NCBI GenBank assembly: GCA_000165345.1
Contig: CM000429.1
Location: 736,001-800,000 of the forward strand
Reading direction: 5' to 3'
Length of the DNA stretch: 64,000 nt
The position numbers are program-made. Positions 36,001 to 45,000 of the stretch are shown here, one piece after another. The first letter of the stretch is position 1. The number at the start of each line of letters is the position of its first letter.

Positions 36001-39000
36001 GAGTGGTTGTGATTCTGCACTTTGCTCTGACGGAAAGGCATATAGCAAACGAACAAGGCCAATCCTCACTTCACCAAGAGGTTCTGGGGCTCCTTGTCCC
36101 AAGACAAGAGAGTTAAAGGAATGTACTAGTTCATATACATGCATGTCAAATTCATGTGTAGTTGGTCAATGGTCACCTTGGTCTCCATGCAGCGAAAACT
36201 GTACTATTGCTGTAAGAAGAAGAACTGTTCAACAAATTCCCTCTCCTGGTGGTACACCTTGTCCTCATTTGTTTGAGATTAATCCTGTGAGTAAATGTCA
36301 AGCTAACCCTTCATCCATATTGAATTTGGCAAATCAATTGTCATGCTCTACGGCGGATATTTTCCCTTGGGGCTCCTGGTCTGAATGTAGTTCTACCTGT
36401 GGTGGTGGATTTAAAATCAGAAGTAGAAATTCAGGCTTCTTTAAATATTCTGCAGAATCCTGTAATAATCAGCAATGCAGTGTCTATAATGTTGAAGAGT
36501 GTAAAATAAGTAATGATTCGAGCATCATTTACTCACAATTTAACAGACTTTGCCTCATTACTGGCTACTCAAACTCCGAAGACAGGCTTAAATTACTTGT
36601 AAATTATGGTCTAAATGTATAACACAACACTAAAACCATCTCATCACCATCAATTTTTTTCAATAAATCAAGTGCCAAAAAAGAGCAAATAACTTTTAAA
36701 ATGCCAGATGAACCATTTTATAGCCTGTACTTTTATTTTAATTTACATTATTAGAAGCTATATCAAATTATTTCAATTAATAATGCATTTATCTAACTCC
36801 TAAGATTCTTTCCTTATATTCTGATTAACATTATATTATTTGCTTGGTCAACCTGCTATTACTAATGTTCATTTTTAATATATTGCTATTTTCTTCTCAC
36901 TATCTTTTTTGAAACCTCATTGTCTTATTTTTATATCGTCCACATGCAAATGCAAATTTATGCAAGTGGAGGTTTCTGCCCATTTGTGCATGCAATACCG
37001 TTTTCAGAATTTATGTGGAAACAAATTTTAAAAATAAAGTTCAATCCATTCTTCTAAGTTTGCGGAATTAATATTAAATTTAGATATCTAAATATTATTA
37101 CTAAGATTATAATCCTTTTTTGGAAAAAAAAGTAAGAGTTTAGCTACTGTATTCATTTATCTATAACAATAAGAGTAAAAAGTTGTATTCATTAATATTG
37201 GAGTATCTTGCAAAATAATCAATTAGCTATATATAATAAAAATAATTAAGTGCATCATAAATATGATATACTCAATTATTTGTTATATGCAATTCCCAAA
37301 TTAAATTAAGTAATTTGTTAAACCCATATAAAAATTACTGCTTAGAAACTAAATGAGAGTTATTCTGTTTTTACCCCCTCCTCTTCTTCCTTCCTCTTAT
37401 TTGAAATATATCTTGAAATTAGTGAATGAATAAAATTTAAGAACACATTACTGTATGGTTAGTCTCTAGCAGAGAACTACTACTGCTTGAATTAATAGAA
37501 CTAGCAGTAGTTGAAGGCACGTTATTATTACTTGAATTACAGCAAGTAATATCCATATTATTTCCACTATTACTATTCAAATTTATATTCATACAATTAT
37601 TATTAATATTATCATTATTAAAAGTTTGAAAATCATTTAACCCAGGTGAATAGTTATTATCTCGTCCAGAATCCATTTTTCTTTGTTGTGGAATTCTGTC
37701 ATATATTCCTTTAGAAGGACTAAGTGGAGGAGGAGTTGTGAGTATGATTCCCTTTCTTCGAGCATCCAAGTACTTGATAGCTTTTTCCCTTGCCCTATTA
37801 AATCCAAACTTTCTGCTGCTAAACGTTTTAGATTTTCTAACTCCATTTTCAACAAAAAAAGCAAGCCAAGCTTCCATTCTACTATTCCAACTCACTCCTT
37901 TATACCCTGATTTGAATTGTGGATCTGAAAGTTGCCATCTATTTTTCTTCTCATTATTACCTCCAGAATTCAGTGAAACAGAGCTATTTAGTTGTTCTCC
38001 AGAGTTTGATACGCCATTCATGTTTGTGCTTTGTCTTCTGGAATTAGAATTTCCATTTTTATGAAATTGTTTCTGATTTAGCTCAAAGTATAGGTGATTT
38101 TGACCTTGATCAGACAACTTATTCAGTTCATTTACTCCAATTTTAATATTATTAACATCATACTCCTTCTCAATTGGCGTATCGTAGCTTAATCCCGTTC
38201 CAATCCCTGTTCCTGTTTGTCCTGTTCCTGTTCCTATTCCTCCTGAGCCAAGACCCACTCCAAGTCCAAGGCCAACTCTTGACCCTCCTCCATTAAAATT
38301 CAAATTGTTGATTAATCCTAATTGATTATTTGGATTTAACTTTGTTTGTTGGCTGTATACCATATTGTTGTTATTTCCATAACCACTTTCTCCAAAAATA
38401 TTGGGACAACCTGGAAATACTGAATTTTGATTTTGGATTACATTTGGTCTAAGCTTTGCAGAATTATATTGAATTTCATTATCCATTAAATTACCACCAT
38501 TTCCTCCACAAACTCCATTTTCAATTTCTTGAATATGGCCATTTGTTGGAAAATTTATATTTGGTCCACCAACAACACTTTTCCCAAACTGATTCTGTTG
38601 TTGGTATTTTGTTAAGTTTCCTGTTCCTGTATAACCACCTCCCATTAATGTCTCTTCTGGTAATCCAAAATAGAACAATGGAGCTGCTGTGGAAAATGGG
38701 ACAAAATTTACCTGTTCATTAATTCCATTGCTTGAAAAGAAAGGATTATTTTGAGGAAGTCCAGTAAAAGGAGGAGGGGTACTAATGCATAATGCCACTA
38801 AATTTAATAAATTTTGATTATTATTTGGAAACAATAATGGCTGACCAAAATATGGAATGAATTGTCCAGAAGATGTTGAAGTGCCTATTGAACTTACTCC
38901 ATTTGTTGTATTTGTTGAAGAAAGAAGCAAGTTAATCCCATTGAAATCTGGATTTTCTAAAGATCTAGATGATGTTGGAGAAACTGCCTGCTTTACATCA

Positions 39001-42000: not shown

Positions 42001-45000
42001 GGAAAGGAATGAGTGTGGGTAATGTAGCAAAGAGGAAAGGGGTTGTTTTTTTTTCTAGAAAAATGAAGAAATACGGTACTCAAACACGACAAGATTAATT
42101 TAATAATCTAAACTGGATGTGATATATAGAATGTTTGGAGTGGTGTTTTACCATGGAATTGATATCATTATCTTTTATAATCGTGTTAGTAATTGAACTT
42201 TCTATTTTTTTTCATTGGAATAACTATTTGTATGCGTATCTTAAATATTTTGATCCAATTATGAGAAATAAATGTCCAGGCCGAGTTAACTAAAAGTTAG
42301 AAGTTACAGATCCAGCTCCAAAGTGACCAAAAGGGACCTTTCAAGGACCCTTGTCACAAAAAATTGACTTTAAAGTAATTTTGAATTAATTTACTGGTCG
42401 ATTCTAACCAATATCTCGCGACCATCTATTTCACGATCGTTGAGCTTCTCAACAGCAAGTTGTGCATGGTTAGGATCAGTGAAAACAATTGTAGCAATTC
42501 CTCGTGATCTTCCATCTTCGAAATAAAAGACCTCGCAAGATTCTAAAGGACCAATTTCATTAAAGGCTTTAGCAAGATCCTCTTGAGTAGTTTTCCAAGC
42601 CAAGTTAGTAACAAAGACTTGCTTTCCTTTATTTTCCTCTTTTAGTGGAGGTCTTGGAGCATGAGTCCTTGTTCTCATTCCATAGCCTCTGTTATTCCAT
42701 TTGTTTGATCTTCTACCATATCTACTTGATTCATCTTCACGATCCTCACGCACAAAAATTAGACGATCAAGTAATGTAGTATTATTTAATTCATTGATAG
42801 CTCTTTGAGCTTCCTCCGGAAATGAATACTCAACTACTCCACAACCCCTAGAACGGCCAACTTCATCTTCAAAGACGTCTGCCCGAATAACATTTCCAGC
42901 TTGTCGCATGTGATCCTTAAGATCGTGCCACTTTGCCTTCCATGGAAGATTTCCAACATAAACACGGCAGTTTTTATCAGATACCATCCTCAATATATGT
43001 TCAAGAAGATTTTTGTCAACTTAAGAGGAGAAAAAATAATCAATTAAACTTTAATGTTATTCTACGTCTTTTTTGACCAATACTATAATTTTTCTTTCCT
43101 GTTTTGATTTTATTCTTTAATTTTTTTGAGGAATCTGATCCCCTCTTTTATTTTTCTTAGAATAATTTTAGTATCGTTACTATCTAATTTACTAAAACTT
43201 AAACTAGAAGGCTATTTAATTTGTTTGTATTATTTTACTCTACGTATACCGTTAACTAAAGTATGTAAATAGCAAATAAATAGTATATAATATATTTAAT
43301 TAATAACAAAGCTTTGACAAACTGCCTATTACCAATTATATATAAATGTTATATATACATATATATGTCATTTATAGCAATTCCACTATTTTTATTTAAA
43401 ACTTGAACCAAATATTATTTTATGTGGCATTTCTCCAATGTGCCGCCTGCATACTCATTGGGCGCCATAAAGGTACCGTCGCTATGGCGGGGCCAGCCCT
43501 GTCTACAGGGAATTCATTGAAAATTATATTTTAATTGTATAGTAATATTACATTGTTTACTATTATTTAATTAGCAAATTTGATTCAATTTTTCTTTATT
43601 AGAATGAGAAATTAGTTATTCTGGGAGTTTAAATAGGATCAATTTTGTGTTGAGGGGGGGGGGGGGGGGAAGAAAGGGGTTCATGAGAGGTGACAAAAAA
43701 GGACAAATATGGAGGGAAGGGGGGAATATATGAGATAATGTCAGAAGTGGATTGATTGAGGGGATGTGGGAAGGGGAGACATTTTTCTTTTGGCAAATGT
43801 CGGCATAATAAATATTAGAAAATATGTTCGTTGTGCCGCGCAAGCCAACATCAACTTCCCTTGTCAAAAAATTGTTATCGTTATTTTCCTTTTAACTTTT
43901 ATAACACCATTTCTCGCTACCAACCGCTCAAATATGTAATGACTTGAAAATATAGCTTTTCAAAACTAGTAAGAATTGTGTTTACCAGATACTATCAATC
44001 TGGATAAAGTTTCATTTATTTCTTATTTTCATGTTGCCTTTCCATCGGACCTCCGACTAGTTTGACTACTATGCGTCATCCGTCTCAGTTATGCATCCTA
44101 CATCCTTGGCTAGCGCGAGCGCTTGCCAACTGGGTTTTATTGAGAAAGTAAGGAACCTATCTCAAACATCGAATCCTGCTCAATTAACCGATCTCCTCTC
44201 TACCCTGCACAAGCCTGCTCTATATCCCCTGATTTTTTCTCCACTCCCCGATACAACCTCTTCCCACCAGCTGCCCTAAAATCGGAGTAACTACTATTAC
44301 TATTCTAATTCTACTTGGAAATTTGCCTCTAACCGTACAAATACTACTAGTTAACTACCAAGCATCTTGCCCTTCTCTAGCTCACCTTGGCGAAGGCTGA
44401 AACAAGCATCTGTGCTTTTTCCCCACGTTTCCACAAGAAACTCCTCTTCTTCTTCCCTAAGTCGTTCTTTTTCCCTTAAATAAAAACCCCAATTAGTCTC
44501 AGACACCGATACTTTTTAAAAAGCTTTTTGGCGCCCAGCCGCCAATACTTTATTAATATTAGCAAGCTTTTTTGGTATTGGGCGGCGGCGTGGCCCGCCT
44601 TTTACAGAAAATGTCATTTTAAAAGAAAAATAGAAAACTAAAAGGTTTGGATTATTTACTTTTTTATCGGAAAGAAGAGCCGAAAAATTTTGGCTAAAAC
44701 TGTTCGTATTGATGAGGGTCTAGTTGCAGGAACTTTATGTTACTTGTCAATTTATTGTAATTTTTTACAACTGAAAACAGGAAACAAACACAGAAATATG
44801 GATCATAAAGCTTACTGAGAGCCTAAACACATTTAAAAAAAGGGAATACAACAGAAACTGATAAGAATCCTTTCTTATATATTTATATACTGTACATATC
44901 ATACGTTTATTTGTTCTAACTATCCATGTAAATATTCCTATCCATATATAAACTTTTGAGTTATTAATTATGGAATTTGTCTCTAAACTTAAAAGTGAGG

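What the first reader, a model, noticed from the sequence alone, without database searches (positions are those of the whole stretch)
37437..42390. ApiAP2 gene preceded by a 3.3-kb gene-free region, about 5 times the typical spacer, carrying stacked GCATGC boxes and orphan promoter clusters
Everywhere else in the window spacers are 0.3-1 kb. Upstream of this ApiAP2 gene, 39108..42390 has no credible ORF on either strand. Within it I read three things. First, ATGCATGCATGCATGCATGCG (five overlapping GCATGC palindromes) plus CACGTG plus a long GA-rich tract at -320 to -420. Second, a second E2F plus double-GCATGCA cluster at 40069..40100. Third, TGTCCACATG plus GCATGCATGTGTGC at 41220..41270. GCATGCA is itself an ApiAP2-class binding motif, so this looks like auto or cross-regulation by AP2 factors. 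A long, possibly multi-promoter 5' region like this is the kind of architecture seen at master-regulator AP2 genes in Plasmodium. The region 41800..42390 is less AT-rich and may be the 3' UTR of the neighbouring RRM gene or an lncRNA.
Basis: partly seen in the sequence, partly recalled or inferred. Interest (0 to 1): 0.6.

Follow-up and report, generated by a model that had tools for sequence, protein, structure and literature searches.

The report
Long conserved upstream region of Cryptosporidium AP2 gene
The unusually long gap in front of a Cryptosporidium parvum transcription-factor gene holds no missed protein gene: one end is an already published non-coding RNA, and the rest is a conserved control region carrying the DNA motif that this factor itself binds in vitro.

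Summary
The window is C. parvum chromosome 1. The AP2 gene is cgd1_3520 and the RRM neighbour is cgd1_3530 (CpGBP).

**Confirmed**
- The 3,283-bp spacer has no protein gene in four C. parvum assemblies or in seven other Cryptosporidium species, and no conserved ORF in any frame.
- All three motif clusters sit at the stated coordinates.

**Corrected**
- The GCATGC stack has four copies, not five.
- Other local spacers reach 1.0–2.0 kb. This one is about 3.5x the local median and 6.5x the published genome mean.
- The region is not gene-free: 41770..42390 is the 5' part of the published lncRNA Cp_lnc_64.

**New here**
- The spacer is 2.7–3.4 kb in seven intestinal species.
- The 18-nt (GCAT)4GC array, with CACGTG just upstream of it, is kept exactly in seven species.
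- Cluster 2 is conserved out to C. canis.
- The AP2 sense strand is purged of ATG from the start codon out to cluster 2 (3 observed, 15.6 expected, z -5.4). This suggests a ~0.95-kb mRNA leader starting at cluster 2.

**Interpretation**
Published binding arrays show the cgd1_3520 AP2 domain binds TGCATGCA. Auto- or cross-regulation is therefore plausible, as in Plasmodium AP2-Sp, but it is untested. The gene is reported as not stage-specific. Moderate interest; all parts are of known kinds.

The parts
37437..39107 (-). CDS of ApiAP2 gene cgd1_3520 (CPATCC_0035760 / GenBank tag CPATCC_000040), 556 aa
   Evidence: ORF list. Exact protein found in four C. parvum assemblies and named 1g3520 in cluster members. 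N-termini of the canis, felis, serpentis and xiaoi orthologs align to this start, so there is no missed 5' exon.
37767..37910 (-). AP2 DNA-binding domain (residues 400-447)
   Evidence: Pfam PF00847, 44.4 bits against a cut-off of 33.3. Matches the PF14_0633 AP2 domain, PDB 3IGM, at E 3.4e-9.
39132..39143 (-). Three-codon upstream ORF (ATG AGA GCA TAA) at -36, kept in four species
   Evidence: Function not tested.
39108..40067 (-). Inferred 5' leader of the AP2 mRNA (~0.95 kb): sense-strand ATG depletion and a purine-rich sense strand
   Evidence: 3 sense ATG outside the stack against 15.6 expected (z -5.4). ATG is the most depleted of 64 trinucleotides, while CAT is not depleted. The depletion is repeated in meleagridis, chipmunk and ubiquitum, and is absent from the distal control in C. 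parvum. Skew boundary near 40100. This is an inference; the transcription start was not observed.
39332..39491 (-). Proximal conserved block. Read on the AP2 strand: CACGTG (39479-39484), (GCAT)4GC (39428-39445), GTGTGTG (39392-39398), polypurine tract (39340-39391)
   Evidence: 81% invariant across four species against a 46% baseline, P 2e-20. 74% identity to C. canis over 160 nt, E 9e-24, and also matched in C. felis. The 18-mer is exact in seven species.
40068..40116 (-). Cluster 2: E2F-type TGGCGCCT (40071-40078) plus two TGCATGCA (40084-40091, 40093-40100). Proposed distal promoter of the AP2 gene
   Evidence: 78% invariant, P 5e-6. 80% identity to C. canis, E 5e-7. It lies at the outer edge of the ATG-depleted zone.
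41220..41266 (.). Cluster 3: TGTCCACATG (Li et al. 'motif5' type) plus TGCATGCATGTGTGC. An upstream module of unknown target
   Evidence: 70% invariant across four species, P 9e-4. Not detected in canis or felis. No ATG depletion downstream of it in C. parvum.
41675..41752 (+). Promoter region of Cp_lnc_64: T-run at 41675-41689 and E2F-like TGCCCGCTCAA at 41742-41752
   Evidence: Listed in Li et al. Table S3 at -94 and -27 of Cp_lnc_64. The GCGGGC core is kept in four species.
41770..42810 (+). Published lncRNA Cp_lnc_64 (CPATCC_0035753), antisense to cgd1_3530. The true 3' end lies beyond the 1,041 nt I could retrieve
   Evidence: Exact 1,041-nt match of the supplementary FASTA text to the window. 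Expression row.
41941..42390 (.). Most conserved part of the spacer (Cp_lnc_64 body and the probable 3' UTR of cgd1_3530)
   Evidence: 71% invariant, P 3e-28. 72% identity to C. canis over 429 nt, E 2e-65. Indels break every frame. No covariation or stability signal.
42391..42987 (-). CDS of cgd1_3530 (CpGBP, telomeric G-strand binding protein with two RRMs), 198 aa
   Evidence: Pfam RRM_1, E 4e-38. Names. Literature.

Best explanation
The 3.28-kb spacer is a composite of ordinary element types, stretched to an unusual length and kept that way in intestinal Cryptosporidium.

(1) The end next to cgd1_3530 (41770..42390) is transcribed on the + strand as the first 620 nt of the known lncRNA Cp_lnc_64. 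That RNA is antisense to cgd1_3530 and enriched in extracellular stages. It is driven by an E2F-like site and a T-run at 41675-41752. The same DNA probably holds the 3' UTR of cgd1_3530.

(2) The AP2 gene cgd1_3520 is most likely transcribed from a conserved E2F + 2xTGCATGCA promoter at 40068-40116. This would give a ~0.95-kb leader that selection has kept nearly free of upstream AUGs.

(3) Inside that leader, or acting as a second proximal promoter, lies the best-conserved element: CACGTG, then (GCAT)4GC, then GTGTGTG, then a polypurine tract, at -225..-385. The (GCAT)4GC array offers three full overlapping TGCATGCA sites. This is the motif bound in vitro by the cgd1_3520 AP2 domain and by three other C. 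parvum AP2s. It is therefore most likely a docking platform for AP2 factors of the TGCATGCA class, giving auto- and/or cross-regulation.

(4) The remaining ~1.6 kb (40117-41674) is upstream DNA of ordinary intergenic conservation with one conserved module (41220-41266). That module may be an upstream activating element or the start of an unannotated transcript.

Shown: gene identities, absence of a conserved ORF, lncRNA identity, motif positions, conservation, ATG depletion.
Inferred: position of the transcription start, AP2 occupancy, and any feedback.
For: - Identity of genes and species.
- No conserved ORF in six frames, and no missed 5' exon.
- lncRNA: exact 1,041-nt match to Cp_lnc_64, its listed promoter motifs and its expression values.
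- Spacer length kept at 2.7-3.4 kb in seven intestinal species. At 1.15 kb it is still the longest spacer in the more compact C. serpentis locus.
- Conservation above baseline for the proximal block, cluster 2, cluster 3 and the lncRNA block.
- (GCAT)4GC is exact in parvum, hominis, tyzzeri, meleagridis, chipmunk, felis and canis, 17 of 18 in ubiquitum, always 218-399 nt from the ATG, with CACGTG 32-39 nt further upstream.
- Strand-specific ATG depletion out to cluster 2 and not beyond. Neighbouring genes show ATG-free zones of only ~140-370 nt.
- Purine-rich sense strand up to ~40100.
- The cgd1_3520 domain binds TGCAT(GCA): PMC4117751. Its domain resembles PF14_0633. PbAP2-Sp auto-activates through own-motif clusters 1.9-2.9 kb upstream: PMC9973277.
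Against: - No transcript-end, chromatin or binding data for this locus could be reached. The transcription start and the AP2 occupancy are inferences.
- The ATG depletion is strongest in four fairly close species that share ancestry. It is weak in canis and felis (z about -2) and absent in xiaoi.
- TGCATGCA is one of the commonest upstream motifs in C. parvum and four AP2s bind it, so self-binding is not singled out.
- TGCAT-core density here is no higher than in neighbouring spacers.
- The G-box, the second motif of cgd1_3520, is absent from the spacer.
- ATAC-seq of sporozoites found E2F but no AP2 motifs in open chromatin (PMC11761812).
- cgd1_3520 is reported as not stage-specific.
- Overall conservation of the spacer (50% invariant) is like other spacers (40-56%) and like third codon positions (47-71%).
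Confidence: 0.6

Rival explanations
1. Ordinary promoter with cross-regulation only. The GCATGC clusters are generic AP2_1 promoter motifs used by other AP2s (for example cgd2_3490) or are simply common promoter furniture. cgd1_3520 does not act on its own gene. The spacer is long only because it adds a long leader to a neighbouring lncRNA unit.
For: Four AP2 domains bind TGCAT, and the motif is overrepresented genome-wide (review table). GCATGC clusters occur at many other places in the window, including 3' convergent spacers. TGCAT-core density is not elevated. The gene is reported as not stage-specific.
Against: The exact copy number of the 18-nt array is kept across species whose AP2 proteins are only 58% identical. 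Full octamers are enriched 6 against 2. The domain of this very gene binds the octamer in vitro. The Plasmodium relative uses exactly this kind of loop.
Confidence: 0.3
2. The middle of the spacer (about 40100-41700) holds one or more unannotated non-coding transcripts, started at cluster 3 and/or divergently from the Cp_lnc_64 promoter. These would be expressed in stages not sampled so far.
For: Cluster 3 is a conserved pair of known promoter motifs with a purine-rich tract on its AP2-proximal side. More than half of the open-chromatin peaks in C. parvum are annotated as bidirectional promoters. Chipmunk genotype and C. ubiquitum show some ATG depletion in the distal segment as well (z -2.4 and -2.8). 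Conserved sub-blocks lie at 41341-41545 and 40641-40740.
Against: No lincRNA id (CPATCC_0035755 or ...65) is listed here in Li et al. K-mers from 40075, 40700, 41030 and 41230 are absent from their lncRNA FASTA on either strand, although that file was truncated when stored. No Rfam match. Conservation of most of this segment is at the intergenic baseline.
Confidence: 0.2
3. A protein-coding gene, possibly small or spliced, was missed in the spacer.
For: C. felis has a predicted 124-aa spliced model here. An automatic caller marks a 48-aa ORF at 40866..41012 on raw assemblies.
Against: The longest ORF is 88 aa. Cross-species similarity appears in all frames and on both strands, wherever the DNA itself is conserved, and frame-breaking indels are common. 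The felis model is a low-complexity T/I run. The 48-aa ORF matches only C. meleagridis, and only in part. No protein accession lies between the two genes in four annotations.
Confidence: 0.02
4. The spacer is a chromatin element rather than a promoter, for example one of the dispersed GA-rich CENH3 sites proposed for holocentric C. parvum chromosomes. A related possibility is that it forms the internal untranslated stretch of a cgd1_3530-cgd1_3520 dicistronic transcript.
For: 58 intergenic CENH3 windows typified by GA-rich motifs are reported, and a conserved ~55-nt polypurine tract lies at 39340-39391. Both genes are on the same strand, and polycistrons are reported in this species.
Against: I could not read the list of CENH3 windows or of polycistrons. 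GA tracts are also a known promoter motif family. ATG depletion stops at cluster 2 rather than spanning the spacer. Cp_lnc_64 runs the opposite way through the junction.
Confidence: 0.06

Closest known systems
Plasmodium berghei AP2-Sp locus: transcriptional auto-activation through own-motif clusters far upstream (Yuda et al., mBio 2023, PMC9973277). AP2-G is similar.
   Same: An ApiAP2 gene whose DNA-binding domain belongs to the TGCATGCA-binding group. It has an upstream region longer than the usual promoter and carries clusters of that same motif.
   Different: AP2-Sp has 23 motifs in one 1-kb zone at -1.9 to -2.9 kb, with ChIP peaks and genetic proof of feedback. Here there are 7 GCATGC in three small clusters (-326..-338, -983/-992, -2151), with no occupancy or genetic data. 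The gene is reported as not stage-specific.
Typical C. parvum promoters built from E2F, AP2_1 (TGCATGCA), AP2_2/CACACA and GAGA motifs (Oberstaller 2013/2014; Li 2021)
   Same: Every motif in the three clusters belongs to an already catalogued overrepresented upstream family.
   Different: The scale differs. The spacer is 3.28 kb against a mean of 504 bp. There is a four-fold overlapping array with fixed copy number across species, and an inferred ~0.95-kb leader where neighbours have ATG-free zones of ~140-370 nt.
C. parvum antisense lncRNAs starting at the 3' end of the sense gene (Li et al. 2021); specifically Cp_lnc_64
   Same: 41770..42810 is Cp_lnc_64 itself, by exact sequence. It starts downstream of the sense CDS and has an E2F-type promoter, as is typical of the class.
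   Different: It starts 620 nt beyond the stop codon of the sense gene. That 5' stretch is far more conserved (72% identity to C. canis) than the surrounding spacer.

Membership tests
ApiAP2 transcription factor gene | AP2 (PF00847) domain above the Pfam gathering score | tested here: met
   44.4 bits against a cut-off of 33.3, residues 400-447.
ApiAP2 transcription factor gene | Membership of the TGCATGCA-binding AP2-Sp/AP2-EXP (PF14_0633) domain group | tested here: met
   phmmer hit to the 3IGM chain (PF14_0633) at E 3.4e-9 over the domain. Orthology and array binding come from PMC4117751; I did not test the binding.
Auto-activated ApiAP2 locus (AP2-G / AP2-Sp type) | Clusters of the factor's own binding motif in its upstream region | tested here: met
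   7 GCATGC and 6 TGCATGCA in 3.28 kb, in three conserved clusters. The factor's motif is taken from the literature.
Auto-activated ApiAP2 locus (AP2-G / AP2-Sp type) | Regulatory region extending beyond the normal promoter size of the species | tested here: met
   3,283 bp against a mean of 504 bp. Length is conserved in seven species.
Auto-activated ApiAP2 locus (AP2-G / AP2-Sp type) | In vivo occupancy of these sites by the gene's own protein | not testable with these tools
   No ChIP or CUT&RUN data for cgd1_3520 were found.
Auto-activated ApiAP2 locus (AP2-G / AP2-Sp type) | Expression depends on the sites or on the protein (positive feedback) | not testable with these tools
   Requires genetics.
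Auto-activated ApiAP2 locus (AP2-G / AP2-Sp type) | Stage-determining ('master') role | not tested
   The literature is mixed: 'not stage-specific', preferentially sexual-stage in an earlier RNA-seq, and a 12-h peak by RT-PCR.
C. parvum lncRNA Cp_lnc_64 | Sequence identity with the published transcript | tested here: met
   1,041 of 1,041 nt identical to window 41770..42810 (+).
Protein-coding gene | An ORF conserved in one frame across species | tested here: not met
Known structured RNA family (Rfam) or tRNA | Covariance-model match at or near the gathering score | tested here: not met
   No gathering-level hit in the window. The best hits in 39000-42500 are 17-22 bits at E > 3.

The most novel reading that the evidence does not exclude
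cgd1_3520 sits in a conserved self-reinforcing loop. Its protein binds the fixed (GCAT)4GC array and the distal TGCATGCA pair in its own ~1-kb, AUG-purged leader and promoter. If so, auto-activation of the AP2-Sp/AP2-EXP lineage through TGCATGCA clusters would predate the split of Cryptosporidium and Plasmodium. This locus would be the first dissected cis-regulatory circuit of a Cryptosporidium AP2. The strongly conserved 5' part of Cp_lnc_64 next door might be a second, RNA-level input.
Probability: 0.25. Interest if true: 0.55.

Novelty: new member of a known kind. Interest (0 to 1): 0.35.

Why it matters
Gene control in Cryptosporidium is poorly understood, and no AP2 promoter in this genus has been dissected. 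This locus gives a compact, testable case. It has a fixed four-site array of the motif that the encoded factor binds in vitro. It has a predicted distal promoter and a ~0.95-kb leader that can be checked against existing long-read data. It also has a neighbouring, strongly conserved lncRNA segment. If self-binding holds, it would link Cryptosporidium to the auto-activation logic shown for Plasmodium AP2-Sp and AP2-G. If it does not, the locus is simply a long, well-conserved promoter built from catalogued motifs.

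Tried and rejected
1. **Skipped locus tag.** The GenBank tag CPATCC_000039 is skipped between the two genes, and 'CPATCC_0000390' appears in an mRNA table. This was a red herring. GenBank tags and CryptoDB ids are different numberings, and the local CryptoDB ids are CPATCC_0035740-0035790.
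2. **Transcript evidence from public assemblies.** The short contigs carrying an RRM variant come from a divergent species and do not match the window. All contigs with the 48-aa ORF are 10-20 kb genomic assemblies. No transcript ends were obtained.
3. **Missed 5' exon.** The 794-800-aa orthologs in C. xiaoi and C. ryanae align from the same N-terminus, and their extra length is internal.
4. **C. felis 124-aa model.** It is low-complexity and has no counterpart elsewhere.
5. **Structured RNA in the conserved 450-nt block.** RNAalifold covariation terms are unfavourable on both strands (+3.1 and +1.1). Folding z-scores are 0.13 and 0.70. Rfam gives nothing.
6. **Telomerase RNA idea,** prompted by the telomere-binding neighbour. 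There is no template of 8 nt or more for TTTAGG repeats in the spacer.
7. **Supplementary tables.** Those of the polycistron/ATAC study, the CENH3 study and the two genome papers are not held as text.
8. **Neutral-spacer idea.** Whole-spacer conservation is only at the intergenic baseline, but the conserved length and the four blocks above baseline argue against neutrality.

Full report
**Origin and gene identities**

The window is AT-rich (about 27% G+C). The 556-aa ORF at 37437..39107(-) carries one Pfam AP2 domain. It occurs with exactly this sequence in four Cryptosporidium parvum chromosome-1 assemblies. Cluster members name it 1g3520, so it is cgd1_3520. The two-RRM ORF at 42391..42987(-) is cgd1_3530, known in the literature as the telomeric G-strand binding protein CpGBP. 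Both genes lie on the minus strand, with cgd1_3530 upstream.

**Checking the observation**

The spacer 39108..42390 is 3,283 bp.
- No protein gene is called in it in four C. parvum annotations. None is called in C. meleagridis, chipmunk genotype I, C. ubiquitum, C. canis, C. xiaoi or C. serpentis either.
- Protein accession numbers of the two flanking genes are consecutive in several records.
- The longest ORF is 88 aa.
- When all stop-to-stop segments of eight species are compared, similarity turns up in every frame and on both strands wherever the DNA is alignable, and never in distant species. The alignment shows 1- and 2-nt indels.
- A 124-aa model in C. felis is a low-complexity run. A 48-aa ORF called on raw assemblies is not conserved.
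- The N-termini of the orthologs align to the annotated ATG, so there is no missed 5' exon.

'No credible ORF' is therefore right.

The motifs are at the stated places and are far above chance. GCATGC occurs 25 times in the window against 3.65 expected, with 7 in this spacer. GGCGCC occurs 8 times against 0.31.

Four details are wrong:
- The stack has four GCATGC, not five.
- The GA tract lies downstream of the stack, at -233..-292.
- Other annotated spacers nearby are 149-1,976 bp, with a median near 940. The ratio is therefore about 3.5x locally, although it is 6.5x the published genome mean of 504 bp.
- TGCAT cores per kb are no denser than in neighbouring spacers. Only full TGCATGCA octamers are enriched, 6 against 2.

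**The far end is a known lncRNA**

K-mers from 41900 and 42310 hit the supplementary FASTA of Li et al. 2021 (PMC7840661) under Cp_lnc_64. The 1,041 nt that I could retrieve match window 41770..42810 on the + strand exactly.

The paper's tables give these details:
- It is listed as CPATCC_0035753, an antisense RNA to CPATCC_0035750 (= cgd1_3530).
- An E2F-type motif, TGCCCGCTCAA, lies at -27 and a T-run at -94.
- VST expression is 9.0 (oocyst), 7.9 (0 h), 8.3 (2 h), 6.6 (24 h) and 6.7 (48 h).
- Correlations are -0.55 with the sense mRNA and -0.59 with the AP2 gene.

This segment is also the best-conserved long stretch. It is 71% invariant across four species against a 46% baseline, and 72% identical to C. 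canis over 429 nt. I found no coding frame, no covariation, no unusual folding energy and no Rfam match. Why it is so conserved remains open.

**Comparative anatomy of the rest**

The distance from the cgd1_3530 stop to the cgd1_3520 start in each species is:

| Species | Spacer (bp) |
|---|---|
| C. parvum | 3,283 |
| C. meleagridis | 3,171 |
| chipmunk genotype I | 3,190 |
| C. ubiquitum | 3,197 |
| C. felis | 3,107 |
| C. canis | 2,736 |
| C. xiaoi | 3,404 |
| C. serpentis (gastric) | 1,147 |

In C. serpentis every spacer is shorter, and this one is still the longest in the locus.

Whole-spacer conservation is 50% invariant in a four-species alignment. That is like other spacers (40-56%) and like third codon positions (47-71%). 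Specific blocks stand out:
- Proximal block 39332-39491: 81% invariant.
- Cluster 2, 40068-40116: 78%.
- Cluster 3, 41221-41266: 70%.

Only the lncRNA block, cluster 2 and the proximal block are still detectable in C. canis. Only the proximal block is detectable in C. felis.

The 18-nt (GCAT)4GC is exact in C. parvum, C. hominis, C. tyzzeri, C. meleagridis, chipmunk genotype, C. felis and C. canis, and 17 of 18 in C. ubiquitum. It always lies 218-399 nt from the ATG, with CACGTG 32-39 nt further upstream. It is the only such array in each ~21-kb locus. C. xiaoi has four dispersed GCATGC plus CACGTG. A tetranucleotide repeat that keeps its copy number across species whose AP2 proteins are only 58% identical is under base-level constraint.

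**A long leader**

On the AP2 sense strand, the 970 nt upstream of the start codon hold 3 ATG outside the array, against 15.6 expected from dinucleotide-preserving shuffles (z -5.4).
- ATG is the most depleted of all 64 trinucleotides (z -4.9). Its reverse complement CAT is not depleted (z -0.7).
- The same holds in C. meleagridis (z -4.4), chipmunk genotype (-4.3) and C. ubiquitum (-4.1). It is weaker in C. canis and C. felis (about -2) and absent in C. xiaoi.
- The segment beyond cluster 2 shows no depletion in C. parvum, C. meleagridis or C. canis.
- Neighbouring genes have ATG-free zones of only ~140-370 nt.
- The sense strand is strongly purine-rich up to about 40100.

The simplest reading is that the mRNA starts just downstream of cluster 2. 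Its ~0.95-kb leader would then be under selection against upstream AUGs. The survivors are a conserved 3-codon uORF at -36, two 2-codon uORFs, and the ATGs inherent in the array. This makes cluster 2 the likely promoter rather than an orphan. It is an inference from sequence, and no transcript ends could be retrieved. [quoted passage not shown] They list no lincRNA here.

**Mechanism**

All motifs belong to catalogued C. parvum upstream families: E2F, AP2_1 = TGCATGCA, AP2_2/CACACA, GAGA and 'motif5'. What is specific to this locus comes from four published or tested points:
- Protein-binding microarrays show that the AP2 domain of cgd1_3520 itself binds TGCAT(GCA), with a G-box as a secondary motif.
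- The domain groups with PF14_0633/AP2-Sp, and my search hits 3IGM at E 3.4e-9.
- In P. berghei, AP2-Sp carries 23 of its own motifs 1.9-2.9 kb upstream and needs this positive feedback to keep its expression.
- The cgd1_3520 array offers three full overlapping octamers, and cluster 2 offers two more.

Self-binding is therefore a reasonable hypothesis, and I put it at about 0.25-0.35. Cross-regulation by cgd2_3490, cgd8_3230 or cgd5_4250, which bind the same motif, fits the sequence equally well.

Several points argue against a 'master regulator' reading:
- The gene is listed as not stage-specific.
- No G-box is present in the spacer.
- Sporozoite open chromatin lacks AP2 motifs.

**Comparison, novelty and score**

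The locus works like the auto-activated AP2-Sp/AP2-G loci in layout. The defining features of that class, occupancy and dependence, could not be tested. Every component is of a known kind, and one component (Cp_lnc_64) is already published. Three things appear to be undescribed in the papers I could search:
- The conserved spacer length.
- The fixed (GCAT)4GC array with CACGTG.
- The inferred distal promoter and AUG-purged leader.

I rate the finding a new member of a known kind, interest 0.35.

Noticed in passing
window 41941..42390: A 450-nt block that is 71% invariant in four species and 72% identical to C. canis. Runs of ~45 nt are nearly invariant, for example TCAAACACGACAAGATTAATT.AATAATCTAAACTGGATGTGATATA. 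It is more conserved than third codon positions of the flanking genes, yet shows no coding frame, no covariation, no stability signal and no Rfam hit. It is the body of Cp_lnc_64 and probably the 3' UTR of cgd1_3530. The reason for the constraint is unknown.
   Followed up: partly
window 39132..39143 (-): A three-codon upstream ORF (ATG AGA GCA TAA) 36 nt before the AP2 start codon. It is kept as M-R-A/T-stop in C. parvum, C. meleagridis, chipmunk genotype and C. ubiquitum.
   Followed up: partly
window 39426..39446: The (GCAT)n array is a perfect purine-pyrimidine alternation and is self-complementary. Besides offering AP2 sites, it could adopt non-B DNA (Z-form or a cruciform).
   Followed up: no
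window 36623..37436: The convergent spacer 3' of the AP2 gene holds 9 TGCAT cores and one TGCATGCA (36988) in 814 bp, the densest in the neighbourhood. This could be a start for an antisense transcript, but no id of the CPATCC_0035763 type (an antisense RNA to the AP2 gene) is listed by Li et al.
   Followed up: partly
window 25900..25925, 3304..3327, 12531, 47695..47737: Other GCATGC clusters lie in 3' convergent spacers, or inside the TPR CDS. This fits the published picture of antisense lncRNAs with their own promoters at gene 3' ends.
   Followed up: no
window 42988..44969: The divergent spacer between cgd1_3530 and the TPR gene is 1,976-1,982 bp, the second longest locally. It has GGCGCC at 43461 and 44530 and a 520-nt ATG-free stretch on the TPR sense strand (-359 to -879). 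A 6-bp length difference between the window and CP029780.1 maps here.
   Followed up: partly
L010 (C. serpentis) whole locus: All spacers in the gastric species are about 2-4 times shorter than in C. parvum (for example 300 against 777, and 249 against 1,015), while gene order is identical.
   Followed up: no
L008 7384..7837 (C. felis); window 40866..41012: Probable annotation artefacts: a spliced 124-aa low-complexity model in C. felis, and a 48-aa ORF called by an automatic gene finder on raw C. parvum assemblies.
   Followed up: yes
L022-L028: Seven ~1-kb contigs from different sequencing runs encode a cgd1_3530-like protein that falls in the same 90%-identity protein cluster, but their DNA does not match the window. 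They probably come from an unsampled Cryptosporidium-like organism.
   Followed up: no
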